A stretch of 64,000 bases of DNA, taken from Candidatus Giovannonibacteria bacterium. GTDB taxonomy: Bacteria; Patescibacteriota; Minisyncoccia; UBA11713; 2-01-FULL-45-33. Below the pieces are notes generated by a model that saw only the letters and a program-made list of their open reading frames with translations, ran no database searches and was not told the origin of the DNA. Within the stretch, counting starts at the first letter, position 1; every line of letters starts with the position of its first letter. The stretch is taken from positions 411,040 through 475,039 of the forward strand of contig CP066687.1 of assembly GCA_016432405.1 (NCBI GenBank), given 5' to 3'. This document shows positions 1,672-32,033 of the stretch, one piece after another. A program made the position numbers and the translations under genes.

Positions 1672-1745
1672 GGTGTTATAAGCTCCGACGCTCTGGTCGG
1701 AGCTCCGACTTCTTGAATCTAATTTTTAATGGTGCGTCGGAGTTA

Positions 1746-9776: not shown

Positions 9777-9822
9777 AGATTTATTATAGATTTATTATAC
9801 CTATAATCAACTTCAACGCAAT

Positions 9823-10548
9823 TGGTCAACCTGCCAGGTTGACCAAAAAATCTTCATAATCCTTTGCTTTGCTGCTGCTTACAAACGCGCCGTACTCTTC
9901 AGAACTAGAAAATTGATCCAACAAAATAGACCTGTTTATAAAATTGCCGAATCTATTCGAACCGATATAATCTTGATAACTAGACCATGGATACTTAGAT
10001 TCTTTATTGCGCCAACCAATCAACTCTCTAGGATTGCGGTGAATATACGCAGATAAATGCAAAAGATATTCATTGGTATCAACCAATATTTTATGGCAGT
10101 GGCTGCTGAACAAGTAGCCACTGCGCTTGTGTCTAAGGTTGAAATATTTAGTGTAGCTATTTCCTAATCTGCTCATAAACTTACTAATTCCATTTTCTTG
10201 TAATTCCAGAAGCATCAAATGGTAGTGATTTGGCATCAAAACAAATCCAATAAGCTCAACGATCTGCGCATTAAAAATGTCTCGCTCAATTTCTTGAAGC
10301 GCCGACGTGCCACGTTGACCAAATTTTTTCGCTAGGCTGGAAATGTGATTGAAAAATACATTACCCTGAAGCGCGCAGAGCAAAAATAAAAATCTATTTC
10401 TGTCGTCGTCATCAGCAAAAATATCACGTTTTTCCACGCCTCTGCTAAAAATGTGGTATACCGAATGCTCGCCCTCAAAAGTTATTTTCTTGTTCATGTC
10501 GTTATATTACACCCGCAGGCACTTTTTGGTCAACCTGGCAGGTTGACG
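9823..10548. mobile_element. REP-RAYT-REP unit (family A)
   Basis: The RAYT gene is bracketed by two copies of the 25-nt palindrome TTGGTCAACCTGCCAGGTTGACCAA (9823-9847 and 10527-10548). The two copies are in mutually inverted orientation. Confidence 0.7.
9826..10497 (-). CDS. REP-associated tyrosine transposase (RAYT; IS200/IS605-like HuH Y1 domain), copy 1
   Basis: 223 aa. HuH motif PNHYHLML. Conserved GxHxxFxRGxxKRDIF N-terminus and a catalytic-Tyr region (YIHRNP). The C-terminal codons are encoded by the REP palindrome. Confidence 0.8.
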   Translation of the reverse strand: MNKKITFEGEHSVYHIFSRGVEKRDIFADDDDRNRFLFLLCALQGNVFFNHISSLAKKFGQRGTSALQEIERDIFNAQIVELIGFVLMPNHYHLMLLELQENGISKFMSRLGNSYTKYFNLRHKRSGYLFSSHCHKILVDTNEYLLHLSAYIHRNPRELIGWRNKESKYPWSSYQDYIGSNRFGNFINRSILLDQFSSSEEYGAFVSSSKAKDYEDFLVNLAG

Positions 10549-10563
10549 GTTGACCAGTTGGTC

Positions 10564-13845: not shown

Positions 13846-15111
13846 TTACTCCACTCTTTTAATCTCCGCTCCGAGTTTGCGGAGGCGTTCGTCTATTTTT
13901 TCGTACCCGCGGTCGATTTGGTAAATGTTGCCGATTTGAGATTCCCCGTTGGCAATGAGCGCGGCCATTAGAAACGCAAGCCCAGCCCGGATATCCGGCC
14001 CCTCTAGATTCCATCCCGCTAAATTGGACGGGCCGTGCACAATTGCGCGATGAGGATCGCAAAGAGTAATACGCGCCCCCATCTTATTTAAATCTTCCAC
14101 GTAACTTAAGCGGCCTTCAAAAATAGTTTCATGTATCATGCTGGCGCCCTCCGCCTGCGTTGCAAAAACAACGTATGGCGCCTGCAAATCAGTGGCAAAA
14201 CCCGGATATTCTTTTGTTTGAATGTTAACCGCTCTCCCGACGTAACGTCGGGATTGCTTCAAAGCAAGCTCGCCATTCCCGATTTCATATTCAACTCCGG
14301 CGGCTTTTAAAACCGCAAGCAGGGCTGTAAGTTCTTCTGCCGGAAAATTTTTAATTGTCATTTCTTTTGCGGCAACAGCCCCGAGGATCGCCAAGCTCCC
14401 GGCTTCTATGCGGTCTGGCGGAGCAAAAAATGGAACTTGCCCGGAAAGCGGTTTTCCTGCACGGCCTTCTATAGTTATCGTGTGCGTGCCGGCTCCGCGG
14501 ATCTCCGCGCCGTTTTTATTCAGCCAATCTGCTAAACTCGCAATTTCCGGCTCTTCGGCGGCATTTCTTAAAACAGTCTGCCCTTTGGCTAAAATAGCCG
14601 TCATCATCAGCCCTTCGGTTCCGGTAACGCTCGGCACACGAAAAATAAAATCGCAGCCTTTAAGGCCTCGAGGCGCGCTGACTTCATAAATCGTTAAATT
14701 ATGGACGTCCGACGTCAATAGTTTACTATGGACGTCGGACGTCGATATATTAGCCCCCATTGCTTTCCAGCCGTCTAAAAAAACATCAATCGGCCGCGCG
14801 CCGATCACGCATCCTCCCGGGTGCGGAAAAGAGGTTTTGCCGAAATGCGCCAAAGCTGGCCCCACTGCCAAAATAGAAGCGCGGATTTTTTTTGCGATCT
14901 CATAATCAAATTGCCCGCCATTTACACTATCCAGAAGCTCTTTCATTCTTTTGATATCTTCAATTTCCGGAAGGTTTTGAAAAGCCGGTCCGCCAGCTGG
15001 CGGAGAAAAAAGCAGCGAGGCAGCCAGAGCCGGCAAAGACGCGTTTTTGGAGCCGGAAACCGAAATATTGCCTTCCAGCGCCTTGCCTCCTTTCACTAAA
15101 AATTTTGCCAT
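13846..15111 (-). CDS. murA: UDP-N-acetylglucosamine 1-carboxyvinyltransferase MurA. Start refined to MAKFLVKGG.
   Basis: About 421 aa. MurA N-terminus (KFLVKGGKALEGNISVSGSKNASLP), catalytic-Cys-region equivalents, and two EPSP-like domains. Contains in-frame palindromic inserts at 14699-14747. Confidence 0.9.
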   Translation of the reverse strand: MAKFLVKGGKALEGNISVSGSKNASLPALAASLLFSPPAGGPAFQNLPEIEDIKRMKELLDSVNGGQFDYEIAKKIRASILAVGPALAHFGKTSFPHPGGCVIGARPIDVFLDGWKAMGANISTSDVHSKLLTSDVHNLTIYEVSAPRGLKGCDFIFRVPSVTGTEGLMMTAILAKGQTVLRNAAEEPEIASLADWLNKNGAEIRGAGTHTITIEGRAGKPLSGQVPFFAPPDRIEAGSLAILGAVAAKEMTIKNFPAEELTALLAVLKAAGVEYEIGNGELALKQSRRYVGRAVNIQTKEYPGFATDLQAPYVVFATQAEGASMIHETIFEGRLSYVEDLNKMGARITLCDPHRAIVHGPSNLAGWNLEGPDIRAGLAFLMAALIANGESQIGNIYQIDRGYEKIDERLRKLGAEIKRVE

Positions 15112-16359: not shown

Positions 16360-16421
16360 TTCTAAAACAATTTTTAATTTTCAATTTCAAATTTTAAATG
16401 AATTTTCAATTCAATAATTTT

Positions 16422-16769: not shown

Positions 16770-16841
16770 AATTTAACATTAGATTTAACATTGGATCATT
16801 AGATAATTGATTCAAAATTTGAAATTCAAAATTTAAAATTT

Positions 16842-19800
16842 TTATTGAACCACCTCCACCGTCCTTACGGCTGTCGCGCTGTTTCCGGCGCTGTCGGTCG
16901 CGGAGTAAAGAATCGTGTGCGTGGTGGTGGTTGAGGTGTCCAGCGAAAGCCCGTCTCCTTGCGAAAGTGCCGGTCCCCCATTTAAAGAAGCAGTGTAACC
17001 GAGATTTGAATCAACGTTATCCGTGACGGTTACTCCCATATCCGCGTAACTCGCGCCCACGTTAATCGTCGCCGGGTTATTTCCCAAAATTGTGATTACC
17101 GGCGGGATAACATCGGGTGTTGAAGAAGAAACACCCGATGTTGAGGAGCCGGCGGCGCCGCACGCTCCTGCTTCCGATTTCAAAACCCCATTCTCCGAAA
17201 ACACGCAGACCGGCCCGCCGGTGGCGCGGTCATAAATTGTGAATCCCTGCGGCCCGGTTACGGTGAGTTTTTGCGTTTCAATTTCCTGAACAATCAATTT
17301 TCCGTTTTCATCTATACTCCACAATCCGGAGGCCGACAAAATCTTGCGGACGTTTATGATGTCGTTATTTTGCAAATCCAAGAGACCGGTCGTTCCCAAA
17401 GCAAGCCCTGAAATCTTCGCGTTCAATTCCTGAATCGCTTTTGCCAAAACCGCGGTCAGGTTCGCGTATTTAACATTGACCGGCGTAGAGGACGCGTCAA
17501 GCGTGACCAGCCGCGGGTCAATGCCGAAAACTTCTTCCGCGATTAAACCGACCTGTTCTCCCTTAACTCCGATGTCGTCATTATAAAGGAACGATACCGG
17601 GCGCAAATTTAATACCGTTTCAAGCGCTCCGGCGCCAAGCGAATTAATGTCGTGCTTGAAACGTTGCGAAGAACCCGTGCAGGCCGCGCCATCGCTATAT
17701 GTGACTTCCTTGTTCGCGGAGAGACAGAGAGCTCCGGCTCCGGCTCCGGCCGTAAGCCCGGAAAACGCCGCCGTCCCCGCAACCGACAAAGTCCTCCACG
17801 GCGTCGTGCTTGCGATGCCGAAATCTCCTCCGTTATTAATATATGATTTGTCGGTGCTCAAAACTGGATCGGAAACAATTTTAATCACAGTATCGCCAGC
17901 TTCATTAGTCATTGAAAAACTTGCTTGCTGATTACTGTCCATGCCGAGCTGATGACTAACTGAGCCGCTTGGTCTAACTATATTAACACCGAGAGGTCTT
18001 GGTGATGTTCCTAGACCTAACTGAATTTCAAGCGCGCTTTCACTTGTCGGCACACGGCCAATTCCTACTCTTTTGGTCACGCCGTCAACCGAGATAATTG
18101 GGGGGCCTACAGTTGATGAGGTTGCGATGCTCCACGCGTTAATTACTTGCGGAATTGTTGAGGTCGCGGATTTTTGATAGGAGAAAGTCAGCGCGGCCGC
18201 GGTGCTTGAAGAATAGGTGATGAGGTTGGAGTCAAGATAAGCGTTCCCCTGCACGGAAAGCAAACTTGCCGGACTCGTCGTCCCGATGCCGACGTTGCCG
18301 GTGGTTGCTGCAACAACCAAATGGTCTGCCACGCCACCTTCTCTTATGCCAAAGTTGGTATCTGAACTAGAGTTGCTAACATTGCGACCAATGAACCAAT
18401 CTGGCCCGTCGCCAGTATCAAAATACAAACTCACACTTGCCCCAGCGCCGGTGACCGTGTTGGAAAGTCGTATTTGTGCGGGATCAGTTGTGCCCGCGTC
18501 AATGTTTAATGAATAGGTCCCGGGGTTTGCCACCCCAATACCCACATTCCCCGTAAAATATCCATTTCCCGCAACTGAAAAGAGCGAAGCCGGACTCGTC
18601 GTCCCGATGCCGACGTTGCCGCCTGTTGTTATTACAAATTCATTACCTGTAAAATCAGCGTCCTCACTAATCTTAAAGGAATCCGAATCTGAATTATCTA
18701 TGCCTGCATACCATGAAATGACATCAGGCAATTGCCAACGCAATGTCGCATCCCCCGTCCCAGCTTGTTGAATTTTAATTCCCGCCGAACCAGTAAGGGC
18801 ATCATTATTTCTTACAACGAGAGACTGGTCTGGACTCGTCGTCCCAATGCCGACGTTGCCGCTTGTTTGCTGGACCACGAATTGGCTTGTGCCGATAGTG
18901 AAGCCACCTGTCCCGAATGTACTCGTCGCTGTGCCACTCACCGCGAGCGTTCCCGTCGCCGTAAGACCCGCCACAGAAAGATTGCTGGAGAACAGCCCGG
19001 CTCCATGCACCGAAAGCAAACTCCCCGGACTCGTCGTCCCGATGCCGACGTTGCCGTTATCAATTACACTCAAAACCTCCGTAATATTTACCAAGGCGGT
19101 ACTGGCATAACCAAGACTTATTCTAGAATTAGAGCCAGTAGAAAAATTTTCAATTCCTACACGAGTACTACCGCCAGCGTTCATCGCAATCCCATTCCCC
19201 GCGGCACCATTAGAGAAATAAATCTTTGATGCCGCTCCGCCAATTTCCACTTTAGTCGTAGGATTCGCTAACCCGATGCCGACATTGCCGCCATTAAGCA
19301 GAGTTAATACAGGCGGAGTTGAAGTGGCATACGCATCAGTTGATGTTCCCACATAGAGATTCCCTCCCATTGACGATAAGAGCCAATGTTTCAGGTTTGC
19401 TCCGGCAGAAGTATCGGAAAGCGCGAAAGAAGGCCTCGTCCCCGCCGCCTGCAGGAGCCAGTTCGGCGTCGTCGTCCCGATGCCGACGTTGCCACTGATT
19501 ATTGCTCCATTAGTTGGTGGAGTGGCTCCCCCGTCAGCGTAAGTTCCCACAGCTATGCCCTGATAGCCGACAGAAAGTGAGGGGGCTGTAACTCCATTAC
19601 TTCCGGTACCTTTAAGGTCTATTCGAACAGGACCCGAATCCGAAGCGCTGGCTCCGCTCTGTACAAACCGTATTTGTGCGTACCCGTCACCCTCACTAAA
19701 AAATAGATTATTAGCATTTACACCAAGAGCTCGTATCACACCGAGTTCGTCTCCACTGGCAGTCTGAGAAAGCGTGTCTACGCTTGTTCCAACAGATTTT

Positions 19801-22800
19801 CTGAAAGACAGAGTGCCACTATGAGTTAGAGTGGCGCTGTAAGCAGATATTGTTTGGACTGTATCGGCAGATGCTCCAGCCAGTTCTAGTAATGAACTCG
19901 GGCTAGCGTCCCCGATGCCGATTCTGCCGTTTTGATTTACTCCGCCAACCACAAATGACGGCGTTGAACTTCCGGTATTTGATATCACGAACGAATTTGT
20001 CTCCGTTCCCTGTTCAACCGACAACAACCCCCACGGACTCGTCGTCCCGATGCCGACGTTGCCGCCTTCTGCAATAGACATCCTTATGGCACTTGAGCCG
20101 CCGCCTATTGGGTCTGTATAAAAGTTCAATACATTATTGGTCTCGTCCCACTGAATGTAGGCGCGGTCCACGCCATTTTCATTGAAGCGGATATTTGAAC
20201 TCCCCTCCGCACCATCTAAAATCAATTTATCGGTGTTGGCCGAATTAAAGATATGCAAGGCGTTAGCCGGACTCATCGTCCCGATGCCGACGTTGCCGTT
20301 TTCCGCCACATACAAGCTGTTGGCGGTTGCTCCGCGATTTACAACAAAAGCGGTGTTGTTGCCAACAGTAAGCCCTCCAGAAATAGTGGAAGTGGCGGTG
20401 GTGGAAGTCGCGTTGAAAATAGGGATATTGAGAGTCCCGTAGCTTGTGATGCTTGAATTAAACAATCCTCCGCCCGCCACCGAAAGCAAAGCCCCCGGAC
20501 TCGTCGTCCCGATGCCGACGTTGCCTCCGCTTAACAATGTCATCACAATAGCATCATTGATAGCAAATTGAATTGGGTAAGTGCCAGTTGATTGAAGCAC
20601 ACTTGCGTATGCAGATGCTCCTGTTAGTAATCCTCCAGTAGTGCTCCAATTTTTACCCAACTCAAATGTACCGCCAGTATTTATAATATCGATATATGCA
20701 TAGTTTGTGCCTGTAGTTGATGTGATTTTCATCCTTCCAGTTTCACTTTGAATATCAAGTGGCAGTGTTGGATTCGTCGTCCCGATGCCGACGTTACCGC
20801 CGGATGTAGCCAGATACGTTGAGCCGGTGGTGGTTAATTGCGTCCCCGAAGCATTTCCAAAAGTTAGAAGCCCAGTAACATTCAGCGTTGAAGTCGCCGT
20901 TATCGCCCCGCCGAAGAATCCCGTGCCGGAGAAGTATCCGCTTCCCTGCACCGAGAGCAATGCCCCCGGACTCGTCGTCCCGATGCCGACGTTGCCGGCA
21001 GCATTTATCGTTATAGCCGGTGTTGTAGCTAACGCTCCGAGAGGCGCGGTATAGAACTTCAAACCAGCATCGTTGTTTGTGGCACTTTGGATAAAACCGC
21101 TTATCCGACCCATTGGTAAGACATCACTCCGCTGTTTGAAGTCTATGCTTATCTCGTCATTTGCAAGCATCTGGAGGTCGGAATATGACATACTGAGCAA
21201 AGTAATTTGTGTTGCGGCTCTATTTCCCCCTACCACATCTAATTTATACAAAGGCCCCGTCGTCCCGATGCCGACGTTGCCGCCATTAGTAACTATGAAA
21301 TTCGTTGCCGTTGAAGAGCCAACCACGAATGAAGGGACACCCGCGCCAAGAGCGTTCGGATTTACCGAAAGAAGCCCCCACGGCGAAGTTGATGCGATGC
21401 CGACGTTGCCGGTGGAGGTGACATTAAAAAGCGAAGAGTCAGATGAAGAAAGGACGCGGAAAAGGTCGGCGGATTGGCTGGTAACTCCCTTGATTGTTAA
21501 AGGAATGGCGGTGGTGGAAGTAGCTCCGATTGTGAGCACGGAAAGTCCGGAGTGAGTAGTGGTGCCGAAAGCGGCCTGTCCCGCGGCCGAGAAGACAAAT
21601 CTGGTTGTGGGCTCGCTGGCGCCATCCTGAAGCCGCAAAAGGTCTCCCGAAACGGTGGAGTTCCACATTGTGTATGCGGCGCCGGTAGTGGTGGCCAAAT
21701 GAGTAATTCTTCCCTTAAAAATATGGCTGTCGGCGTTGGGGGCGTCTCCCATTGTAAATTGATTTTCAACAGTGAAGTTGGATGCGGTGGTGGAAGCCAA
21801 AGTTGTGCCGCCAACGGTGGTCAGTCCATTTGCAAAAACGTCCCCGTCAGCATCAACAAGGAAGCGAACCGCTCCGCCGACAGCTATGCCCAGAAGATTG
21901 GTATCCGCCGCCGCCGAAGCCGGATTGATGACCACAACCGAGTCCGTGACCGCGGAGTTGGCAACGCCAACAGCCCAGGTGCCGAAAGTGTGCGAAACCG
22001 TCGGGCTTTTTGTGACTAAAAGCTGTTCGGTGAGAGTCGTGGTGGAGTTTACATTCATTGAAGCGCCGGAGACGTTAAGCCCGCCGCTCGCAAGTATGTC
22101 TCCCGAAACCGAAAAAGTTGCGCTGGGAGTCGTGGTGCCTATGCCAATTCTGTAGTTTTTTGTGTCAAAAGTAAGAAAAGGAGTGACGGAAGTGGAAGTG
22201 GCGAAAGAGAAAGCGTTGATTAAGGAAGAGGCGATGGTGGTGGTGGCCTGGTTGAAGAAAGCGAGATTTCCGTAAAGAGTCATGTCCCCCGTAAGTTGGA
22301 GGGTGGAAGAAGCGTAAACGGCGCTGGCGAAGTCGGAGCGGCCGGAGACGGTAAGAGCGCCGATGGAAGCGGAAGTTGAGTTAAGCGAGGTTGAGGTCAG
22401 AGAAGCCAAGCCCGATACCGCTCCGGCTGAAGTTACGTTCCAGACGTTTGAGGTTATGGATACGTTTTTGCCTTCAGCCCCAAGAGTCACGTTTCCTGAA
22501 GCGTTTAAATTGCCGCCGGTGGAAATTCCGTTGGAGAAGTCCCCGAAAGAAGCCGAGACGCCGGAGCCGGTCTGGGGAGGAGACGAAGCGTAAGGGCCGG
22601 GGATTGAAGTCGTGAGAAAGACAACCGGATTTTGGACCTGGTTGGAAGGAAGCCGTTTTTCCAAAGCGGCAAGAGAAAGCTGGACCTGTGCCAAGACGGC
22701 TTGGTTGAGAGAAGAGAGGCGCTGGTCAAGCTCTGTTTGGGAGATGCCTGCCTTGCCGGCAGGCAGGCCGGAGACGACGCGTTCAACTACTCCGACGCTC

Positions 22801-23987
22801 GGCTTTGCCGAGGTCGGAGCCCCGACCAAAGCGTCGGGGCGGGATGGAGGTGTGGAAGTTGATTCTCCAAATGTGATAATTTTACTTCCATCTTGAGGTA
22901 AATTGGGAGCCGGAGGAGTTTCCGCGGCTTCAGGCGGTTTAACCGAGAAAAAATCCATTGCCACCAGCTTCAGGTCGCCCCCCAAAGACGCTATGTATCC
23001 CCGCCAGCCGAGGACATTGTTTATAAATCTGTCTTTAATATCCGAGAGAGAGAGTTTGGCGTCTTTAAAAGTAAAGGGCAAAGAAAAGGTAGCTCCGACG
23101 TCAGGAAGTCGGAGTCCCGACCAAAGCGTCGGGGGAAGCGAGAATTCGGGCAAAGCAAGAGCCAGCGAGGGGAGTTTGATTTCCGGCCAAGCGAAAAGTT
23201 CTGTGAGAGGTTGGAAATTTGGAAGTTGAAAAGTCGGAAGTTTGAAAGTAAGTTGAGGCAGTTTTGGTTTTGGTAAAGTTAATTTTGGAAGTTTGATTTC
23301 GGGCAGGGAGAGGGCTAGAGAGGCTCGGTCTTTGATGCTTTGAAAAACGTTTCCGAGCACTGCTTTAATGTTAACCTCACCTCCCAACCCCCTCTCCTTA
23401 CGAAGGAGAGGGGGCGGAGGGGGTGAGGTAAGGGTCTCAAAAAATCCGGCTGCAAATTTTTTCGCAGAGACAATAGAATTCCCAATTTCATCCGCGACGA
23501 CGAAAATCTCACCTGCCAACTCTTTCACGGAGACATTAATATTTTCGGTTGCATCCGCAATAGAATTTTTGATTGCGCCCGCGTTATAAAAAATCAGCAC
23601 GGCAATCAGTACTGACGAGAGAGAAGCCGCTCCCAGCGACCATTGCTTCAGAGAAAATTTCGGAAACCGAATTTTTGGAAATTGAAAGTATTCTTTCTCT
23701 TTCTCCCCCAAAATCGCCTTGTCCCACTCATCTGTTGTATGAAAGATTTCCGGCTTTGTAAGGATAACTTGCGGCTCTGTTTTCTCTTGCGTCCGCAAGA
23801 TGGATTTTTTGTAATCCAAAATAGATTTTTCGGAAACCATCCAATCGGTGCCGAATTTTTTTCCTTTTACTTTTTCCTCGCGGCAAAGCTGTCCGACATA
23901 GATGCGTGTATAGCCGCAAAGAGCCGCGGCCTCGGAAGCCGTGATATATTTTTCCCCTTCTAAGATAATTTCACGAGAATCTTTCAT
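16842..23987 (-). CDS. Giant (2381 aa) membrane-anchored fibre-like surface protein: N-terminal HTH, TM, Pro-rich linker, GNVGIGTTSP repeats, C-terminal intramolecular-chaperone (peptidase S74-like) domain, Ig-like tail
   Basis: Single uninterrupted ORF. The N-terminal ITASEAAALCGYTRIYVGQLCREEKV is an HTH. A TM segment lies at about aa 110-135. The LPKLTLPKPKLPQLTFKLPTF Pro-rich repeats follow. There are more than 12 G(G)NVGIGTTSPxxLLSV modules. The C-terminus (SSQRFKHDINSL...LRPVSFLY...GLIAEEV) matches the auto-cleaving tailspike chaperone domain. The final approximately 120 aa (PVITILGNNPATINVGASYADMGVTVTDNVD) resemble a bacterial Ig-like/DUF5011-type domain. Confidence 0.8.
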   Translation of the reverse strand: MKDSREIILEGEKYITASEAAALCGYTRIYVGQLCREEKVKGKKFGTDWMVSEKSILDYKKSILRTQEKTEPQVILTKPEIFHTTDEWDKAILGEKEKEYFQFPKIRFPKFSLKQWSLGAASLSSVLIAVLIFYNAGAIKNSIADATENINVSVKELAGEIFVVADEIGNSIVSAKKFAAGFFETLTSPPPPPLLRKERGLGGEVNIKAVLGNVFQSIKDRASLALSLPEIKLPKLTLPKPKLPQLTFKLPTFQLPNFQPLTELFAWPEIKLPSLALALPEFSLPPTLWSGLRLPDVGATFSLPFTFKDAKLSLSDIKDRFINNVLGWRGYIASLGGDLKLVAMDFFSVKPPEAAETPPAPNLPQDGSKIITFGESTSTPPSRPDALVGAPTSAKPSVGVVERVVSGLPAGKAGISQTELDQRLSSLNQAVLAQVQLSLAALEKRLPSNQVQNPVVFLTTSIPGPYASSPPQTGSGVSASFGDFSNGISTGGNLNASGNVTLGAEGKNVSITSNVWNVTSAGAVSGLASLTSTSLNSTSASIGALTVSGRSDFASAVYASSTLQLTGDMTLYGNLAFFNQATTTIASSLINAFSFATSTSVTPFLTFDTKNYRIGIGTTTPSATFSVSGDILASGGLNVSGASMNVNSTTTLTEQLLVTKSPTVSHTFGTWAVGVANSAVTDSVVVINPASAAADTNLLGIAVGGAVRFLVDADGDVFANGLTTVGGTTLASTTASNFTVENQFTMGDAPNADSHIFKGRITHLATTTGAAYTMWNSTVSGDLLRLQDGASEPTTRFVFSAAGQAAFGTTTHSGLSVLTIGATSTTAIPLTIKGVTSQSADLFRVLSSSDSSLFNVTSTGNVGIASTSPWGLLSVNPNALGAGVPSFVVGSSTATNFIVTNGGNVGIGTTGPLYKLDVVGGNRAATQITLLSMSYSDLQMLANDEISIDFKQRSDVLPMGRISGFIQSATNNDAGLKFYTAPLGALATTPAITINAAGNVGIGTTSPGALLSVQGSGYFSGTGFFGGAITATSTLNVTGLLTFGNASGTQLTTTGSTYLATSGGNVGIGTTNPTLPLDIQSETGRMKITSTTGTNYAYIDIINTGGTFELGKNWSTTGGLLTGASAYASVLQSTGTYPIQFAINDAIVMTLLSGGNVGIGTTSPGALLSVAGGGLFNSSITSYGTLNIPIFNATSTTATSTISGGLTVGNNTAFVVNRGATANSLYVAENGNVGIGTMSPANALHIFNSANTDKLILDGAEGSSNIRFNENGVDRAYIQWDETNNVLNFYTDPIGGGSSAIRMSIAEGGNVGIGTTSPWGLLSVEQGTETNSFVISNTGSSTPSFVVGGVNQNGRIGIGDASPSSLLELAGASADTVQTISAYSATLTHSGTLSFRKSVGTSVDTLSQTASGDELGVIRALGVNANNLFFSEGDGYAQIRFVQSGASASDSGPVRIDLKGTGSNGVTAPSLSVGYQGIAVGTYADGGATPPTNGAIISGNVGIGTTTPNWLLQAAGTRPSFALSDTSAGANLKHWLLSSMGGNLYVGTSTDAYATSTPPVLTLLNGGNVGIGLANPTTKVEIGGAASKIYFSNGAAGNGIAMNAGGSTRVGIENFSTGSNSRISLGYASTALVNITEVLSVIDNGNVGIGTTSPGSLLSVHGAGLFSSNLSVAGLTATGTLAVSGTATSTFGTGGFTIGTSQFVVQQTSGNVGIGTTSPDQSLVVRNNDALTGSAGIKIQQAGTGDATLRWQLPDVISWYAGIDNSDSDSFKISEDADFTGNEFVITTGGNVGIGTTSPASLFSVAGNGYFTGNVGIGVANPGTYSLNIDAGTTDPAQIRLSNTVTGAGASVSLYFDTGDGPDWFIGRNVSNSSSDTNFGIREGGVADHLVVAATTGNVGIGTTSPASLLSVQGNAYLDSNLITYSSSTAAALTFSYQKSATSTIPQVINAWSIATSSTVGPPIISVDGVTKRVGIGRVPTSESALEIQLGLGTSPRPLGVNIVRPSGSVSHQLGMDSNQQASFSMTNEAGDTVIKIVSDPVLSTDKSYINNGGDFGIASTTPWRTLSVAGTAAFSGLTAGAGAGALCLSANKEVTYSDGAACTGSSQRFKHDINSLGAGALETVLNLRPVSFLYNDDIGVKGEQVGLIAEEVFGIDPRLVTLDASSTPVNVKYANLTAVLAKAIQELNAKISGLALGTTGLLDLQNNDIINVRKILSASGLWSIDENGKLIVQEIETQKLTVTGPQGFTIYDRATGGPVCVFSENGVLKSEAGACGAAGSSTSGVSSSTPDVIPPVITILGNNPATINVGASYADMGVTVTDNVDSNLGYTASLNGGPALSQGDGLSLDTSTTTTHTILYSATDSAGNSATAVRTVEVVQ
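18276..21420. repeat. Intragenic dispersed repeat, about 24-29 nt conserved between copies (GGACTCGTCGTCCCGATGCCGACGTTGCC and variants), at least 12 copies
   Basis: Copies sit at about 18276, 18590, 18830, 19030, 19460, 20033, 20268, 20500, 20773, 20960, 21250 and 21385. They are spaced irregularly at 130-600 nt. On the minus strand each encodes GNVGIGTTSP. Confidence 0.8.
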
Positions 23988-24165: not shown

Positions 24166-24894
24166 CTAACTAGCTTTATTTGCCTGTCGCCAGGCGGCTA
24201 TTTTTTTATGATTCCCGGAAAGAAGGATTTTGGGGACTTTATATGTTTTCCCCTTCCATTTGAATATTTCCGGCCTTGTGTAGGCCGGCACGCCGATGCC
24301 GTGCCTTTTTTCTTCAAGCGATTCGGACTTGCCCAAAACCCCGGGAATTTTTCTTAAAACTGCGTCAACAATAACCATCGCGGGGAGTTCCCCGCCGGTG
24401 AGGACATAGGGACCTATGCTCAAATTTTCAATTTTTAACCCGCCTGCCGGACGGGCAGGTTTCCAATTTTCAATTATTGATTTAACGCGCTCGTCAATGC
24501 CTTCATAGCGGCCGCAGATAAAAATAATCCGTTTATATTTCTTGGCGAAATCTCCGGCCATTTTAGAATTAAATTGTTTTCCGGAAGCGGAGAGTAAAAT
24601 TATCAAGACGTCCGACGTCTTCTCTGACTTAGACGTCGGACGTCTAAGTTGAAGAATTGAATCAAGAGCTTTGGCAAGCGGCTCAATTTTCAATACCATC
24701 CCCGGGCCGCCGCCGTAGGGCCGGTCGTCAACCCGCCCAAAGCTACGCATTGAGGCGGGCAAGAAATTTCTTAAATCCCAGATTTTTATTTTTGCCAATT
24801 TCTTTTTTTGGGCGCGCGAAATTATGGACTCGTTAAAATAATCCCTAAAAACTTTCGGAAAAATTGTGATGATATCGAAACGCAAGTTTGACAT
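24166..24894 (-). CDS. trmD: tRNA (guanine37-N1)-methyltransferase TrmD. Start refined to MSNLRFDII.
   Basis: About 243 aa with a TrmD SPOUT fold (RFDIITIFP...GRYEGIDERV...GGELPAMV). The ORF-track N-terminal extension is encoded by a REP-B palindrome. In-frame GACGTC(C/G)GACGTC palindromes lie at 24606-24645. Confidence 0.85.
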   Translation of the reverse strand: MSNLRFDIITIFPKVFRDYFNESIISRAQKKKLAKIKIWDLRNFLPASMRSFGRVDDRPYGGGPGMVLKIEPLAKALDSILQLRRPTSKSEKTSDVLIILLSASGKQFNSKMAGDFAKKYKRIIFICGRYEGIDERVKSIIENWKPARPAGGLKIENLSIGPYVLTGGELPAMVIVDAVLRKIPGVLGKSESLEEKRHGIGVPAYTRPEIFKWKGKTYKVPKILLSGNHKKIAAWRQANKAS

Positions 24895-24912: not shown

Positions 24913-24933
24913 CTTAGCAATCCGATTGCTAAG
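24913..24933. repeat. REP family B palindrome CTTAGCAATC(C/G)GATTGCTAAG
   Basis: 21-nt palindrome between trmD and RAYT2. Other copies: 25391-25411 (inside RAYT2 coding, in-frame LLSNRIAKL), 25605-25625 (variant at the RAYT2 5' end) and 48691-48715 (25-nt perfect). Confidence 0.8.
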
Positions 24934-24940
24934 TAAATCT

Positions 24941-25588
24941 CTATTCACATAACAAATCCTCCATTTCTTTAAATAGCCGCTTTCGCTCCAAAATATCGTT
25001 GAGGGAGCTTTCCGCAAACTTCCTATATTCATCGGCGCTATCAAACTGTTCAAGAATAATAGCCGATCTGCAAAGGGAAGATTTAGATTTTTGCTTAGAA
25101 AAATATTCTTCCCAACTTGATCTAAACTTTTTGTTGCCTTTAATTCTGTGCGCTTTATTGTTTAGGTTTACGTATGCGCTCAAATGCAATAAATACTCGT
25201 TTGAATTGATATGTTTAGCTTTGAATTTTCCTTGGAGAAGAACGCCTGTTCTGTGATATTTAAAATTGAAATGTTGAGTAAACCCGGTCCCTATTCTTCG
25301 CATATATTCACTGATCCCATTGTCTACCCTTTGGCGCAAAATCATATGATAATGATTGGGGTTAAGACAAAAACACACGACGTCCACCAACTTAGCAATC
25401 CGATTGCTAAGTAGAAGTTTTCTAAAAGAATGTTCAAAAATACTGCCAATTGGTTTTACGGAATTAAAATCTTCCATGCCTTGAAGAAATCTTTCGAAAT
25501 CATAACCGTCCAAAAATATATCCCGTTTATCTACACCGCGATTATAAACGTGATAAAACTCTCCGTTTGTAAATCTAAATTTACGCAT
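24941..25588 (-). CDS. REP-associated tyrosine transposase (RAYT), copy 2. Start refined to MRKFRFTNGEFYHVYNRG.
   Basis: HuH motif NPNHYHMIL. Conserved N-terminal HVYNRGVDKRDIF and catalytic region YVNLN. Flanked by, and containing, REP-B. Confidence 0.75.
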   Translation of the reverse strand: MRKFRFTNGEFYHVYNRGVDKRDIFLDGYDFERFLQGMEDFNSVKPIGSIFEHSFRKLLLSNRIAKLVDVVCFCLNPNHYHMILRQRVDNGISEYMRRIGTGFTQHFNFKYHRTGVLLQGKFKAKHINSNEYLLHLSAYVNLNNKAHRIKGNKKFRSSWEEYFSKQKSKSSLCRSAIILEQFDSADEYRKFAESSLNDILERKRLFKEMEDLLCE

Positions 25589-25627
25589 AATTAAAACAAT
25601 AGCACTAAGCAATCGGATTGCCAAGTA

Positions 25628-27346: not shown

Positions 27347-28114
27347 CTATTTTAGATATTTATATTTATTAAGCGCGTGCTCTTCCAATGTCTTGGCGTA
27401 ATGCGTTTTGCCGCCTTTATCCGTAAGGTAATAAAAATATTCGGAGCCAGTCGGACGCAAAGCCGCCAAAATCGCGTCCATCCCGGGGTTGGAAATCGGC
27501 CCGGGCGGCAAACCGCGATAACGGTAGGTATTGTAGGAAGAATCGTATTTTAAGTCCGCCTCCGTCAGCTCGCCGCTCGGTTTGCCCAAAACGTAAGTAA
27601 GCGCGGCGTCAACATTAAGCCCCATGCCAAGCCGAAGCCGCTTCCACAAAATCCCCGCTACTATTTTCCTGTCCGCGGTGCTTTTAACTTCTTCTTCCAA
27701 AAGCGAGGCCATTATTATAATCTGCTCCAAGGTCTTGCCGGAGCTCTTTGCCTCCGCCAAAATCTCGGGGGTTATCTTCTTATTGAAATTATCCCTCATT
27801 TTGGCTATCACCTGCTCCGGCTTCGCGGTTTTGTAAAATCTATAAGTGTCCGGGAACAAATATCCTTCGTGCTTTTGGGCCTCCAAAACAAATTCGTCTT
27901 TTGAAAAAAGCCCCGCTTTCTCAAGCGCTTCCCCTATCTGGCGGACGCTGTATCCTTCCGGAATGGTCACGGCCGCCTCATTGGAAACCATTCTTTCTTT
28001 TTCTTTGTATTTTATGTAAGCCGGAAATTTTCCCAAAAAGAAAATACCCGAAAGGAGAAGGAAGAGCGCGAGGGCCGCGGTTAAAAGTTTTTTAATGTCA
28101 CCGTTTTGAATCAT
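27347..28114 (-). CDS. mltG: Endolytic murein transglycosylase MltG (YceG-like)
   Basis: 255 aa. N-terminal TM and YceG-like core (EGYLFPDTYRF...SIIEKE-like...YNTY...GLPPGPISNPG). Confidence 0.8.
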   Translation of the reverse strand: MIQNGDIKKLLTAALALFLLLSGIFFLGKFPAYIKYKEKERMVSNEAAVTIPEGYSVRQIGEALEKAGLFSKDEFVLEAQKHEGYLFPDTYRFYKTAKPEQVIAKMRDNFNKKITPEILAEAKSSGKTLEQIIIMASLLEEEVKSTADRKIVAGILWKRLRLGMGLNVDAALTYVLGKPSGELTEADLKYDSSYNTYRYRGLPPGPISNPGMDAILAALRPTGSEYFYYLTDKGGKTHYAKTLEEHALNKYKYLK

Positions 28115-28844
28115 TGTCGGAAATTAAAGGCACAAACACAAAACCGGGATGCTCGGTCGCATCAAATTTATGCGCTGTATTAGCGGGCGCGGTTTTATTT
28201 TTTTTAATAAACCCACACACCAAACAGTTTGGTGTGTGGGTAAATTCAAAAATACTGCCGCCGATAGGGGCGACGATTTTGCCGCCGATTTTTAATTGAT
28301 TCCGCCAAGTAGCCGGCAAATGCCCCAAACCCAAATGCCCCAAACCTGGTTTGGGGCTAGCGGAGGCCGCGGCGATTATTTTATCAAAGCCACCTATTTT
28401 TTGAGCAATTTCAGGGAGACCCGGAACGCCGTCCTGGCAATAAAACCTTACCTCCCCCCTCCCTTCCTTATTAAGGAGGGGATTTAAGGGGAGGTTAAAA
28501 AACTCCTCAAAATTTTCTTTTCCGAATTTACAAAGTTCCGGCACCCTTTCAATCGCGTAGACATTTGCGCCTACATAGGCCAAAAGCGCCGTCTGCCAGC
28601 CGGAGCCGTAGCCAACCTCCATAATATTATCCCCGGACTCCGGGTTTAAAAGCTCAAGCATAAAAGCCACCGTCCACGGCTGGGAAATCGTCTGCCCCTC
28701 ACCTATCGCAAGCGGCTCATCAATATATGCGTAATCCTCAAATTCTTTTGGCACAAAATTTTTTCTATCAACTGCCCGGAACGCCTCAATCAGCCGAGGT
28801 GTTTTCAGAACTCCTCTTTTGATTAAATTGTCAGCTAAAGCCAT
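28098..28844 (-). CDS. pcm: Protein-L-isoaspartate O-methyltransferase with in-frame palindromic inserts. Start refined to MALADNLIK.
   Basis: Pcm motifs: SQPWTVAFMLELL, EVGYGSGWQTALLA and C-terminal VFVPL. Contains two palindromes in-frame (28212-28240 and 28337-28355). Confidence 0.75.
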   Translation of the reverse strand: MALADNLIKRGVLKTPRLIEAFRAVDRKNFVPKEFEDYAYIDEPLAIGEGQTISQPWTVAFMLELLNPESGDNIMEVGYGSGWQTALLAYVGANVYAIERVPELCKFGKENFEEFFNLPLNPLLNKEGRGEVRFYCQDGVPGLPEIAQKIGGFDKIIAAASASPKPGLGHLGLGHLPATWRNQLKIGGKIVAPIGGSIFEFTHTPNCLVCGFIKKNKTAPANTAHKFDATEHPGFVFVPLISDNDSKR

Positions 28845-28853
28845 ACCAAATGT

Positions 28854-28870
28854 CCGAAACTTAGTTTCGG
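28854..28870. repeat. REP family C hairpin CCGAAAC-TTAG-TTTCGG
   Basis: Copies at 28854-28870 (between pcm and RAYT3), 29526-29542 (other side of RAYT3) and 29327-29344 (inside RAYT3, in-frame DLNLVSDI). Confidence 0.75.
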
Positions 28871-29517: not shown

Positions 29518-29613
29518 ATTATTGTCTGAAACTTAGTTTCGGTCAAGTTTCAATTAAATCATCCACAGGCGCCTATTTTCAATGTTAACACCCCGTGGTA
29601 AAATTAGAATAAC

Positions 29614-32029: not shown

Positions 32030-32033
32030 GCAA

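What the first reader, a model, noticed from the sequence alone, without database searches (positions are those of the whole stretch)
14699..14747. RPE-like phenomenon: at least six families of short palindromes inserted in-frame into housekeeping proteins
Copies of palindromic elements lie inside ORFs while preserving the reading frame:
- murA carries 2x TATGGACGTC(C/G)GACGTC (14699-14747), encoding TSDVHSKLLTSDVH.
- trmD carries 2x AGACGTC(C/G)GACGTCT (24606-24645).
- pcm carries CCCACACACCAAAC-A-GTTTGGTGTGTGGG (28212-28240, peptide THTPNCLVCG) and CCCCAAACCTGGTTTGGGG (28337-28355).
- iscS/nifS carries AAAACCAGGTTTT...AAAACCTGGTTTT (45401-45437, peptide KPGFESAKKPGF).
- The giant protein carries GTCGGAGCCCCGAC-type elements (22813-22839 and 23108-23135).
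- The RAYT genes carry their own REPs.
The same element families also occur intergenically, and they create the spurious N-terminal extensions of trmD, pcm and RAYT2 in the ORF track. This parallels Rickettsia palindromic elements, which insert peptide-coding palindromes into proteins. To my knowledge it is not a described feature of CPR-like genomes.
Basis: seen in the sequence. Interest (0 to 1): 0.75.

Follow-up and report, generated by a model that had tools for sequence, protein, structure and literature searches.

The report
In-frame transposon palindromes in housekeeping genes
Short DNA palindromes of the kind that flank a family of small transposase genes have been inserted, without breaking the reading frame, into surface loops of essential enzymes in this ultra-small (CPR) bacterium and its relatives, which is a known type of selfish-DNA behaviour seen here in a new lineage and form.

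Summary
The window holds 25 strong hairpins against 3.7 expected by chance.

The inserts are true insertions. Closer relatives at about 75-87% protein identity have empty sites in pcm, iscS and the giant ORF. For murA the insert-free orthologues are 62-65% identical. AlphaFold models place the MurA and IscS inserts in disordered loops.

The elements are not Rickettsia RPEs. They are REP/REPIN-type palindromes of a very large RAYT-like Y1 (HUH) transposase family found almost entirely in Patescibacteria. Each is flanked by its own palindrome and has a third, in-frame copy inside the gene.

The murA/trmD palindrome GACGTCSGACGTC flanks a RAYT paralogue in another Giovannonibacteria genome. Three further coding-insert cores also match RAYT-flanking palindromes.

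The closest relative shows a RAYT gene deleted down to a palindrome doublet. The iscS insert is a 71-nt hairpin with conserved loops and covarying stems.

Intragenic REPs were already described outside CPR, so this is a new variant of a known kind. Mobilisation by the RAYT is inferred, not shown.

The parts
13846..15111 (-). murA (UDP-GlcNAc 1-carboxyvinyltransferase), host gene. The true start is the ATG at 15111.
   Evidence: Pfam EPSP_synthase E 9e-62. PDB MurA E 6e-84. The exact 421-aa protein is called on 11 public contigs.
14695..14752 (.). REP doublet in murA. The units GACGTCCGACGTC (14704-14716) and GACGTCGGACGTC (14731-14743) are inverted relative to each other. It encodes STSDVHSKLLTSDVH.
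   Evidence: 28-nt arms, 86% complementary. 13-aa insertion relative to PDB MurA. Absent from orthologues P0015-18 and more distant ones. It forms loop 127-139 between two strands, with pLDDT <50 at 128-136. The core is identical to the REP flanking a RAYT in L010.
24166..24894 (-). trmD, host gene. The true start is at 24894. The listed ORF runs on to 25053 through a REP.
   Evidence: Pfam tRNA_m1G_MT. PDB alignment starts at ORF residue about 54-60.
24606..24648 (.). REP doublet in trmD. One unit is the full REP CTTAGACGTCSGACGTCTAAG (24628-24648) and the other is at 24606-24620. It encodes LRRPTSKSEKTSDV.
   Evidence: 15-nt arms, 100% complementary. About 10-aa insertion relative to PDB TrmD. 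The 21-nt unit is identical to the L010 RAYT-flanking REP. An orthologous copy is present in L090, L107, L006 and L091, and other families or no insert are present elsewhere.
24439..24459 (.). 21-nt hairpin insert CCTGCC-CGTCC-GGCAGG(CGGG) in trmD, encoding PARPAGG.
   Evidence: A clean 7-codon insertion absent from L090 and L006. The same CCTGCC...GGCAGG family lies in ORFs of several relatives and appears as PASPAGG in IscS of P0263 and P0286.
28098..28844 (-). pcm (protein-L-isoaspartate O-methyltransferase), host gene. The probable start is the ATG at 28844.
   Evidence: Pfam PCMT. PDB alignment begins at ORF residue 12. The orthologues in L090 and L006 are 207 and 205 aa.
28211..28241 (.). 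31-nt perfect palindrome ACCCACACACCAAAC-N-GTTTGGTGTGTGGGT in pcm, encoding THTPNCLVCG.
   Evidence: It is a 33-nt insertion absent from L090 and L006. The same family is inserted in mreC of L006.
28323..28355 (.). CCCCAAACCWGGTTTGGGG palindrome plus a short tandem duplication in pcm, encoding PKPGLGHLGLG.
   Evidence: A 33-nt insertion absent from L090 and L006.
28450..28497 (.). Nested palindrome CCTCCCC..CCCCTCCTT-AAT-AAGGAAGGG..GGGGAGG in pcm, encoding PLNPLLNKEGRGEV.
   Evidence: A 36-nt insertion relative to L090. The inner palindrome is at 28460-28482. The same PLLxKEG family is in the giant ORF and in murA of L008.
44375..45709 (-). iscS/nifS-type cysteine desulfurase, host gene.
   Evidence: Pfam Aminotran_5, split into two stretches. 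PDB E 6e-102, with the alignment broken between residues 84 and 110.
45386..45454 (-). 'Type A' composite hairpin element in iscS: outer stem, TCCTC, AAAACCAGGTTTT, an 11-nt loop, AAAACCTGGTTTT, TTCCC, outer stem. It encodes APLSSKPGFESAKKPGFFPSGA.
   Evidence: Six copies share the scaffold with covarying stems: 95.3% of cells paired, 20 of 25 pairs changed on both sides, 0 of 500 shuffles as high. The site is empty in IscS of P0245 and others at 83-87% identity. pLDDT is <50 at residues 89-107.
24913..25625 (-). REPtron 1. The RAYT-like Y1 transposase gene is at 24941-25588. Its own palindrome CTTAGCAATCSGATTGCTAAG lies 5' (25605-25625, 2 mismatches), in frame inside the gene (25391-25411, LLSNRIAKL) and 3' (24913-24933).
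   Evidence: Pfam Y1_Tnp and NCBIfam REP_Tyr_transpos hits, both weak. REP positions. L090 has only 5'REP-54 nt-3'REP at this site, including a remnant of the RAYT N-terminus. L092 and L093 have the full REPtron.
28854..29542 (-). REPtron 2. The RAYT-like gene is at 28861-29517. Its palindrome CCGAAACTNAGTTTCGG lies 5' (29526-29542), inside the gene (29328-29344) and 3' (28854-28870).
   Evidence: Pfam Y1_Tnp 27.1 bits, above the cutoff of 23. REP positions. Absent from the syntenic site in L090.
9822..10550 (-). The RAYT-like gene is at 9826-10497. Its palindrome GGTCAACCTGSCAGGTTGAC lies 5' (10528-10547) and 3' (9824-9844). A degenerate internal copy lies near 10311.
   Evidence: Pfam Y1_Tnp 29.4 bits. 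Sequence. The site between proS and the M50 peptidase gene is a 20-nt spacer in L006.
48693..48713 (.). Solitary intergenic copy of the REPtron-1 palindrome (CTTAGCAATCGGATTGCTAAG).
23092..23135 (.). GTCGG-type two-hairpin element in the giant ORF (residues about 285-294).
   Evidence: It is a 14-aa insertion absent from the L090 orthologue.
22790..22840 (.). GTCGG-type two-hairpin element in the giant ORF (residues about 383-392).
   Evidence: At this site L090 carries a PLLTKEG-type element instead.
23388..23414 (.). PLLxKEG palindrome CCCCCTCTCCTT-ACG-AAGGAGAGGGGG in the giant ORF.
   Evidence: It is shared with the L090 orthologue, so it is an older insertion.
17109..17142 (.). Doublet AACATCGGGTGTT-8 nt-AACACCCGATGTT in the giant ORF.
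   Evidence: The related ACATCSGATGT core flanks a RAYT in L046 and sits in murA of L007.
1682..1709 (.). Intergenic GTCGG-type element between mraZ and the next gene.
32033..32077 (.). Intergenic GTCGG-type two-hairpin element.
30279..30316 (.). GTCGG-type element inside the 659-aa ORF (29874-31853).
   Evidence: Not compared codon by codon with L090.

Best explanation
The in-frame palindromes are REP/REPIN-type miniature elements belonging to REPtron systems. A REPtron is a RAYT-like Y1 (HUH) tyrosine transposase gene flanked by its own palindrome.

This Giovannonibacteria genome carries several divergent RAYT-like paralogues, each with a cognate perfect palindrome of 13-31 nt with an odd centre. 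Single palindromes, inverted doublets that fold into one long hairpin, and a 71-nt composite hairpin have been copied into new sites.

The genome is about 90% or more coding, so most landing sites are genes. Purifying selection leaves only copies that are a multiple of three in length, free of stop codons in the frame used, and located in permissive surface loops. This explains why the same loops of MurA, TrmD and IscS carry different families in different lineages.

Doublets can also arise from a REPtron by internal deletion of the transposase gene.

Shown here:
- the insertions and the empty sites in relatives;
- sharing of families across genes and genomes;
- identity of four insert cores with RAYT-flanking palindromes;
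- a deletion derivative of a REPtron;
- loop location of the inserts;
- stem covariation in the composite hairpin.

Inferred by analogy with IS200/IS605 TnpA and E. coli TnpA-REP (PMC8266576):
- that the RAYT-like enzymes recognise the folded single-stranded hairpins and catalyse their spread;
- that the inserted peptides are translated and tolerated.
For: 1. Real insertions.
- MurA has a 13-aa gap against PDB homologues, TrmD gaps of 10 and 12 aa, and IscS about 20 extra residues.
- The pcm of L090 (the closest relative found; 72% pcm, 83-97% other shared proteins) and of L006 lacks all three pcm inserts of 36, 33 and 33 nt, and both lack the trmD 21-nt insert.
- IscS of P0245/46/50-52/57 (83-87% identity) has an empty site.
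- MurA of P0015-18 has an empty loop.
- Between the window and L006, nearly all internal indels of >=7 aa are palindromic DNA.

2. Families recur in other genes and genomes.
- The iscS element here is homologous to the murA element in L006.
- The pcm palindrome here matches one in mreC of L006.
- The PLLxKEG family occurs in pcm, the giant ORF and murA of L008.

3. Link to RAYT.
- All three RAYT-like genes in the window are flanked by their own palindromes.
- Under perfect-match criteria, 30 of 74 related loci have the same palindrome on both flanks.
- In L010 the RAYT is flanked by ACTTAGACGTCCGACGTCTAAGT, which is identical over 21 nt to the trmD unit.
- The flanking palindromes in L046, L048 and L047/L059 match the cores inserted in murA of L007, iscS of L171 and trmD of L148.

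4. Origin of a doublet. At the RAYT1 site L090 has 5'REP-54 nt-3'REP, and the spacer still encodes MRKFKFIR, the RAYT N-terminus.

5. Hairpin as the unit. Six copies of the 71-nt element are 95.3% paired, 20 of 25 pairs change on both sides, and 0 of 500 shuffles reach the observed values. Slid controls give 41-46% pairing. The internal loops TCCTC and TTCCC are invariant. The element occurs in both orientations relative to the host gene.

6. Loop location. pLDDT is <50 only in the insert and in known flexible loops.

7. Generality. In 628 kb of related loci there are 87 perfect palindromes against 10 expected, and 34 of them lie inside long ORFs.
Against: - No transposition was observed, and the cognate RAYT for the GACGTC family is not in this window.
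- The AAACCWGGTTT, CCCACACCAAAC, PLLxKEG, GTCGG and CCTGCC/GGCAGG cores were not found next to any RAYT in the 80 RAYT loci sampled.
- The RAYT-like proteins score far below the NCBIfam REP_Tyr_transpos cutoff (26-33 bits against 80). They hit only ISDra2 TnpA in the PDB, at E about 1e-3.
- The palindromes lack the 5' GTAG or CGTC tag that defines the classical REP superfamilies (PMC3733652).
- Copy numbers in the window are low, at 2-5 units per family.
- No clear target-site signature was found. A possible TTTA duplication appears at one pcm site only.
- Covariation in the simple GACGTC doublets is mixed. It is compensatory in trmD of L006 but parallel and non-compensatory in murA of L009.
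- Different families at the same codon positions could reflect replacement in place rather than independent insertion.
Confidence: 0.8

Rival explanations
1. Some of the families (CCCACACCAAAC, PLLxKEG, GTCGG two-hairpin, CCTGCC/GGCAGG) are RPE-like orphan palindromic MITEs. They would be mobilised by something other than the RAYT-like enzymes, or be no longer mobile. On this reading the RAYT link holds only for the GACGTC-type cores.
For: These families were not found flanking any of the 80 sampled RAYT loci. Di Nocera et al. report whole REP superfamilies (CGTC) with no dedicated transposase, including the intragenic RPE-4 and RPE-6 of R. conorii.
Against: - These families share the same design as the RAYT-linked ones: a perfect palindrome with an odd centre, often doubled or nested.
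- They occupy the same hot-spot sites. For example, the giant-ORF site holds a GTCGG element here and a PLLTKEG element in L090.
- The AAACCWGGTTT core sits in the same 71-nt scaffold as RAYT-linked cores.
- Only 80 of thousands of RAYT loci were sampled.
Confidence: 0.25
2. The hairpins are kept because they do something for the host. Candidates are mRNA or DNA structures that pause translation or transcription, nuclease or methylase target clusters, or sources of loop variability. On this reading they are exapted, not merely tolerated selfish DNA.
For: - Some inserts are old and retained. The trmD doublet is shared by relatives down to 65% identity.
- Stem complementarity is maintained by compensatory changes, as in trmD of L006 and in the 71-nt element.
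- Each RAYT gene keeps an in-frame copy of its own palindrome at a fixed position.
Against: - Presence and absence are patchy among close relatives.
- The host proteins are unrelated to one another.
- The element occurs in both orientations relative to transcription.
- The inserted segments are predicted to be disordered.
- There is no Rfam match.
- Covariation of orthologous copies can also come from quasi-palindrome correction or re-copying.
Confidence: 0.1
3. The palindromes arise in place by a mutational process such as template switching or fold-back synthesis at each site. They would not come from insertion of pre-existing elements.
For: Palindromic insertions can be made by template switching. 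Some inserts include short local duplications, for example TTGGGGCAT repeated in pcm.
Against: - Near-identical 21-71-nt sequences occur in unrelated genes and in different genomes, and they flank transposase genes.
- The outer stems of the 71-nt element resemble each other between murA and iscS copies rather than resembling the host flanks.
Confidence: 0.04
4. The segments are ancestral protein sequence, chance palindromes or assembly artefacts.
For: None beyond the fact that these loops are variable in length in many lineages.
Against: - Hairpin excess of 25 against 3.7 expected.
- Empty sites in relatives.
- The identical MurA protein occurs on 11 independent contigs.
Confidence: 0.01

Closest known systems
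REPtrons / REP-REPIN-RAYT systems (Nunvar 2010; Bertels & Rainey 2011, PMC3116915; Ton-Hoang 2012, PMC3333891; Corneloup 2021, PMC8266576)
   Same: - An HUH/Y1 transposase gene flanked by its own short palindromes.
- The same palindromes dispersed as singlets and as inverted doublets that fold into one long hairpin.
- Co-evolution of enzyme and palindrome.
- A 'perfect palindrome' REP group is known.
   Different: - The proteins are only distant relatives, below the NCBIfam cutoff, with ISDra2 TnpA as the best PDB hit.
- There are several divergent paralogues per genome (three in 64 kb), whereas RAYTs are typically single-copy.
- There is no GTAG tag.
- Copy number is low.
- Many copies lie inside genes.
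- An in-frame copy of the palindrome sits inside the transposase ORF at +160 to +190 nt.
- The lineage is CPR/Patescibacteria.
Intragenic REPs (Di Nocera et al. 2013, PMC3733652)
   Same: REP singlets and dimers lie inside known protein-coding genes and add about 20-30 amino acids. More than half of them are dimers. The highest counts were reported in Opitutus terrae and Rickettsia conorii.
   Different: - That study covered GTAG- and CGTC-tagged REPs in cultured phyla.
- Here the palindromes are untagged.
- Here they are linked to RAYT-like genes even for a CGTC-containing core.
- Here they concentrate in recurrent hot-spot loops of MurA, TrmD and IscS across many lineages.
Rickettsia palindromic elements (RPE; Ogata et al. 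2000, as summarised in PMC10969869)
   Same: Several families of palindromic selfish DNA are inserted in frame into unrelated housekeeping genes. The insertions are compatible with protein fold and function and occur in a reduced genome.
   Different: - RPEs are about 100-150 bp, have no known transposase, and are specific to Rickettsia.
- The elements here are 21-75 nt and match the palindromes that flank Y1 transposase genes.
- No sequence relationship to RPEs was tested.
IS200/IS605 insertion sequences (IS608, ISDra2)
   Same: They have a Y1 HUH transposase, subterminal hairpins at both ends and single-strand DNA transposition. ISDra2 TnpA is the best match among solved structures.
   Different: - No near-identical multicopy IS is seen.
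- The three genes in the window are only 34-38% identical to each other.
- The two ends carry the same perfect palindrome, whereas these insertion sequences have distinct left and right ends.
- One REPtron sits at the same locus in relatives of 67% TrmD identity, which points to mostly vertical inheritance.

Membership tests
REPtron / RAYT-REP system | Encodes a Y1 HUH transposase with an HUH motif and a catalytic tyrosine. | tested here: met
   NH(Y/F)H and the conserved Y in ..AY.H.N.. are invariant in the alignment of the three window proteins. Pfam Y1_Tnp scores are 27.1 and 29.4 bits (cutoff 23) for RAYT2 and RAYT3, and 20.8 for RAYT1.
REPtron / RAYT-REP system | The protein belongs to the curated RAYT family (NCBIfam NF047646 equivalog, or close to E. 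coli TnpA-REP). | tested here: not met
   REP_Tyr_transpos is the best NCBIfam hit but scores 25.9-33.2 bits against a cutoff of 80. A PDB profile search finds only ISDra2 TnpA at E about 1e-3 and no TnpA-REP entry. JGI names some homologues 'REP element-mobilizing transposase RayT'.
REPtron / RAYT-REP system | The transposase gene is flanked on both sides by copies of a short palindrome. | tested here: met
   All three window genes are flanked in this way. So are 30 of 74 related loci under perfect-match criteria and 30 of 42 when mismatches are allowed.
REPtron / RAYT-REP system | The same palindrome is dispersed elsewhere in the genome as singlets or inverted doublets (REPINs). | tested here: met
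   There is a solo copy at 48693-48713. The GACGTC, ACATC, GAAGTC and TGTCAAACAC cores flank RAYTs in some genomes and form doublets in genes in others. The whole-genome copy number could not be counted.
REPtron / RAYT-REP system | A conserved GTAG (or CGTC) tetranucleotide lies at the 5' foot of the hairpin. | tested here: not met
   The flanks read ACTTAG/CTAAGT, ACTTGG/CCAAGT or other sequences. No conserved GTAG is present. CGTC occurs inside the GACGTC stem, not as a tag.
REPtron / RAYT-REP system | Extragenic location and high copy number (typically >100 per genome). | tested here: not met
   Many copies are intragenic. There are 2-5 units per family in 64 kb. Genome-wide numbers were not obtainable.
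REPtron / RAYT-REP system | The enzyme cleaves and joins its cognate single-stranded REP. | not testable with these tools
   This needs a biochemical assay such as the one in PMC8266576.
Rickettsia palindromic elements (RPE) | Palindromic repeats inserted in frame into unrelated housekeeping genes at positions compatible with the fold. | tested here: met
Rickettsia palindromic elements (RPE) | Element length of about 100-150 bp and sequence membership in RPE-1 to RPE-10. | tested here: not met
   The elements here are 21-75 nt. Sequence comparison with RPE consensus sequences was not done.
Classical MITE | Terminal inverted repeats plus a direct target-site duplication. | tested here: inconclusive
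   The whole element is a palindrome. Only one site (pcm, 28211-28241) shows a possible TTTA duplication, and the other sites show none.
IS200/IS605 insertion sequence | Multiple near-identical autonomous copies with distinct left-end and right-end hairpins. | tested here: not met
   The three genes are 34-38% identical. Both ends carry the same palindrome.

The most novel reading that the evidence does not exclude
The palindrome cores may be rewritten in place rather than only inserted.

Across relatives, the same codon positions in IscS, TrmD, MurA and the giant ORF hold different palindrome families. The same is true of the fixed in-frame site inside the RAYT gene itself.

RAYT1-subfamily proteins of 64-75% identity carry either LSNRIAK (..GCAATCSGATTGC..) or LRRPTSK (..GACGTCSGACGTC..) at the same residue, between the same CTTAG/CTAAG feet. 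This matches the palindromes that flank them.

The 71-nt scaffold keeps its loops while its 13-nt core and outer stems change in a compensated way.

This would mean that the Y1 enzymes mediate copy-over or gene conversion of hairpin cores at existing sites. It would be a concerted-evolution mechanism that also diversifies surface loops of essential proteins. The intragenic copy in the RAYT ORF could then be a self-recognition or autoregulatory site.
Probability: 0.15. Interest if true: 0.8.

Novelty: new variant of a known kind. Interest (0 to 1): 0.62.

Why it matters
CPR/Patescibacteria genomes are small, densely coding and poorly understood.

- **Annotation and inference.** A very large lineage-specific family of RAYT-like transposases (at least 6,752 proteins at E <=1e-10 in one capped search) seeds palindromes into essential enzymes. 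This explains many odd low-complexity loop inserts and spurious N-terminal extensions in CPR annotations. It also cautions against reading such inserts as functional adaptations or using them as phylogenetic characters.

- **Link to RPEs.** The finding ties the RPE-like phenomenon of peptide-coding selfish palindromes to a candidate transposase. This has been missing for Rickettsia RPEs and for CGTC-type REPs.

- **Experimental access.** It supplies natural enzyme-hairpin pairs, each with a distinct perfect-palindrome specificity, for testing how Y1 enzymes read hairpins.

- **Open question.** The hot-spot loops and the in-ORF palindrome copy raise a testable question: are hairpin cores replaced in place?

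Tried and rejected
- **Rfam scan of the window.** It found only four tRNAs and nothing at the palindromes.
- **PDB search with the RAYT profile.** It found only ISDra2 TnpA at marginal E-values and no TnpA-REP.
- **Finding RAYT paralogues of the same genome.** I tried the 'longest contig = 651549' flag. Only RAYT1 itself appeared among the 120 listed hits.
- **Searching the 80 RAYT loci for other cores.** I looked for AAACCWGGTTT, CACACCAAA, PLLxKEG and GTCGG-type. None was adjacent to a RAYT.
- **Reading REP families from the in-ORF peptide of 120 RAYT homologues.** This recovered only the LSNRIAK and LRRPTSK types.
- **Target-site duplication analysis.** Using codon alignments with L090 and L006, it was inconclusive.
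- **Host origin of the outer stems.** I considered that the outer stems of the 71-nt element were inverted copies of host flanks. I rejected this because the outer stems of the murA and iscS copies resemble each other (RCGCCGC...).
- **Covariation in the simple GACGTC doublets.** The result was mixed, so I did not use it as an argument.
- **Scan for more copies of the TCCTC...TTCCC scaffold.** In 1.17 Mb of fetched sequence it found only the six already known. My first regex version returned nothing because of a coding flaw.
- **Restriction-site explanation.** GACGTC occurs 17 times against about 14 expected, and 8 of the 17 lie in the two doublets. This gives no sign of general enrichment.
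Full report
**What is there**

The window comes from a Candidatus Giovannonibacteria (CPR/Patescibacteria) genome. Its MurA is 100% identical to an NCBI MAG protein on a 651,549-nt contig.

Every palindrome in the finding is present at the stated place and lies in frame inside an ORF. Pfam and PDB alignments identify the hosts as murA, trmD, pcm and iscS, with homology on both sides of each insert.

The window has 25 hairpins with >=11 matched bp, <=1 mismatch and loop <=20. Dinucleotide shuffles give 3.7. At >=13 bp the count is 11 against 0.33.

The exact 421-aa MurA protein is called on 11 contigs from several sequencing runs, so the inserts are not assembly artefacts.

**They are insertions**

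Against solved structures:
- MurA has a 13-residue gap exactly at STSDVHSKLLTSDVH.
- TrmD has gaps of 10 and 12 residues.
- IscS has about 20 extra residues between positions 84 and 110.
- Pcm loses alignment over the insert-bearing part.

Two syntenic relatives were recovered. L006 has MurA at 76% identity. L090 is the closest relative found; its shared proteins are 83-97% identical, except pcm at 72%.
- Both have a pcm of 205-207 aa that lacks all three palindromic inserts of 36, 33 and 33 nt.
- Both lack the 21-nt CCTGCC..GGCAGG insert of trmD.
- Between the window and L006, nearly all internal indels of >=7 aa are palindromic DNA in whichever genome carries them.
- One GTCGG element of the giant ORF is absent from L090.
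- IscS orthologues at 83-87% identity have an empty site.

AlphaFold models give the following:
- MurA (mean pLDDT 86.5): the insert is the loop between strands 121-126 and 140-145, with pLDDT <50 at 128-136.
- IscS (mean pLDDT 76.0): the insert is a disordered loop at 89-107, between helix 72-86 and strand 112-116.

**The families are shared between genes and genomes**

- The GACGTCSGACGTC doublet is in murA and trmD here.
- The AAACCWGGTTT element of iscS here is homologous over about 70 nt to an element in murA of L006.
- The CCCACACCAAAC palindrome of pcm recurs in mreC of L006.
- PLLxKEG palindromes occur in pcm, the giant ORF, murA of L008 and the giant ORF of L090.
- CCTGCC..GGCAGG recurs in several relatives.

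The same loops are hot spots.
- The MurA loop holds TSDV, KPGF, PLLxKEG or FEPRR..STRFE inserts, or none, in different orthologues.
- The TrmD loop does likewise across 80 loci.
- The IscS loop holds KPGF, KSDF, STLGVE/TPGV or TSDV doublets, or none.

**Link to transposases**

The window has three genes for RAYT-like Y1 (HUH) transposases: 24941-25588, 28861-29517 and 9826-10497. They are 34-38% identical to each other, with conserved HUH and Tyr motifs.

Each gene is flanked 5' and 3' by its own perfect palindrome. Each also has a third, in-frame copy inside the gene about 20 residues before the HUH motif; in RAYT3 this copy is degenerate. None of the three is present at the syntenic site in the relative(s) covering that site — L090 and L006 for RAYT1 and RAYT2, L006 only for RAYT3.

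A scan of species-representative genomes returned 80 related loci, almost all Patescibacteria.
- With perfect-match criteria, 30 of 74 have the same palindrome on both flanks.
- Allowing mismatches, 30 of 42 analysable loci have a 3' copy. Eighteen of 42 have an internal copy, mostly at +160 to +190 nt of the ORF.

The decisive matches are these:
- In L010 (Giovannonibacteria RIFCSPLOWO2_02_FULL_45_28) the RAYT is flanked by ACACTTAGACGTCCGACGTCTAAGTGT and CCCCACTTAGACGTCCGACGTCTAAGTGGGG. It also has GACGTCCGACGTC inside the gene. The trmD unit CTTAGACGTCCGACGTCTAAG in the window is identical to this.
- The ACATCSGATGT core flanks the RAYT in L046 and is inserted in murA of L007.
- The GAAGTCSGACTTC core flanks the RAYT in L048 and is inserted in iscS of L171.
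- The TGTCAAACACTNAGTGTTTGACA palindrome flanks the RAYTs in L047/L059 and forms a 24-bp-stem doublet in trmD of L148.

At the RAYT1 site, L090 has 5'REP-54 nt-3'REP, and the spacer still encodes MRKFKFIR, the transposase N-terminus. This is a direct example of a doublet formed by internal deletion of the gene. L092 and L093 have the full REPtron at the same site.

**The composite element**

The iscS insert (45386-45454) is one of six copies of a 71-nt element. The copies are in iscS of the window, L171, L172 and L173, and in murA of L006 and L007.

Its layout is: outer stem (12 bp), TCCTC, a 13-nt unit, an 11-nt loop, the complementary unit, TTCCC, outer stem. The internal-loop pentamers are invariant.

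The stems vary with compensation: 95.3% of cells are paired, 20 of 25 pairs change on both sides, and 0 of 500 shuffles reach the observed values. Slid controls give 41-46% pairing. The inner helix was a selection criterion, but the outer helix was not (90.3% paired, 10 of 12 pairs compensated).

The element occurs in both orientations relative to the host gene. This argues for a DNA-level unit rather than an mRNA signal.

**Interpretation**

These are REP/REPIN-type miniature elements of REPtron systems, copied into a genome with almost no intergenic space. Selection has filtered them so that only in-frame, stop-free copies in permissive loops survive.

That the Y1 enzymes mobilise them is inferred from the association and from what is known of IS200/IS605 TnpA and TnpA-REP. 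The latter includes a group acting on perfect palindromes (PMC8266576).

Several points count against a simple filing as 'RAYT':
- The proteins are far below the NCBIfam cutoff.
- Their best PDB match is ISDra2 TnpA at E about 1e-3.
- There is no GTAG tag.
- There are several paralogues per genome, whereas RAYTs are typically single-copy (PMC5581495).
- Copy numbers are low.
- Five palindrome families are not yet tied to any RAYT.

**Comparison with what is known**

RPEs are the functional analogue, but they are longer and have no known transposase (PMC10969869).

In-frame intragenic REP singlets and dimers adding 20-30 aa were already catalogued in other phyla, including R. conorii RPE-4/6 and Opitutus terrae (PMC3733652).

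I found no open-access paper linking RAYT, REPIN or REP with Patescibacteria or Parcubacteria. This is not proof of absence, because subscription literature was not searched.

New here:
- the CPR setting;
- the size of the protein family (at least 6,752 hits at E <=1e-10);
- the in-ORF palindrome copy;
- the 71-nt scaffold;
- the hot-spot loops.

**Unresolved**

The same sites carry different families in different lineages. Examples:
- the giant-ORF site holds a GTCGG element here and a PLLTKEG element in L090;
- the IscS loop;
- the in-ORF site of RAYT1-subfamily proteins reads LSNRIAK in most but LRRPTSK in P0195, between the same CTTAG/CTAAG feet.

This may mean independent insertions into permissive or preferred sites, or replacement of hairpin cores in place. 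The data do not decide between these.

Noticed in passing
window 48638-48677: A perfect 40-bp palindrome (AACAACATTCCAACATTCTG / CAGAATGTTGGAATGTTGTT) lies in an intergenic stretch, 15 nt from the solitary RAYT1-type palindrome at 48693-48713. Its AACATTC..GAATGTT core resembles palindromes flanking RAYTs in L051 and L060.
   Followed up: partly
window 29547-29573 and 28815-28844: Upstream of RAYT2 there is a pseudo-copy of the pcm 5' end (A-GGCGCCTGTGGATGATTTAATTGAAAC). It matches the pcm start of L090 better than the functional pcm start downstream of RAYT2 does. The REPtron appears to have landed at the start of pcm with a duplication or replacement of about 27 nt.
   Followed up: partly
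window 25391-25411, 29328-29344, about 10311; loci L010-L087: Each RAYT-like gene carries an in-frame copy of its own flanking palindrome at +160 to +190 nt of the ORF. The internal copy changes family together with the flanks (LSNRIAK or LRRPTSK at the same residue in 64-75% identical proteins). A second recurrent internal site lies near +450 nt in L013 and L019.
   Followed up: partly
window 26399-27277: This 292-aa ORF has only a weak LpxC-like Pfam hit (E 1e-5, below the cutoff). It is absent from both syntenic relatives. L090 goes straight from yceG to rpsP, and L006 has a glycerol-3-phosphate dehydrogenase gene there.
   Followed up: no
IscS relatives P0249, P0256, P0258, P0260, P0263, P0265, P0271, P0273, P0286 (alignment A3, after window IscS residue 196): A second insertion hot spot holds 34-60-aa inserts such as LKDLASPTGASTRNFSAEKYPCLSKF... 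and AQILRDLAQ...RAILQQENMRV. These lengths are closer to RPEs. The window's IscS lacks them.
   Followed up: no
window 16135-23987: The block holding a MerR-like ORF, a four-helix-bundle gene (23S rRNA intervening-sequence protein family, TIGR02436) and the 2381-aa giant ORF lies between the PEGA-like gene and trmD. It is absent there in L006. The giant ORF is present next to trmD in L090, with large repeat-length differences.
   Followed up: partly
window 57051-57136, 57279-57315, 61806-61840, 60816-60828: Further strong hairpins lie in the N-terminal region of an SLT-domain ORF, the C-terminal tail of ribosomal protein L25/Ctc, the N-terminal region of a PfkB kinase, and near the start of class-II fructose-bisphosphate aldolase. 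I did not check whether they are insertions.
   Followed up: no
loci L094, L095, L101, L108, L112, L125 (TrmD loop): Many Parcubacteria TrmD loops carry K-rich inserts such as NSKFKILNSKQIPNSKFKK or SNFQFPIFKQISKSK, encoded by AT-rich imperfect inverted repeats (AATTTTCAATTTCCAAATT...). This looks like another widespread family of the same phenomenon.
   Followed up: no
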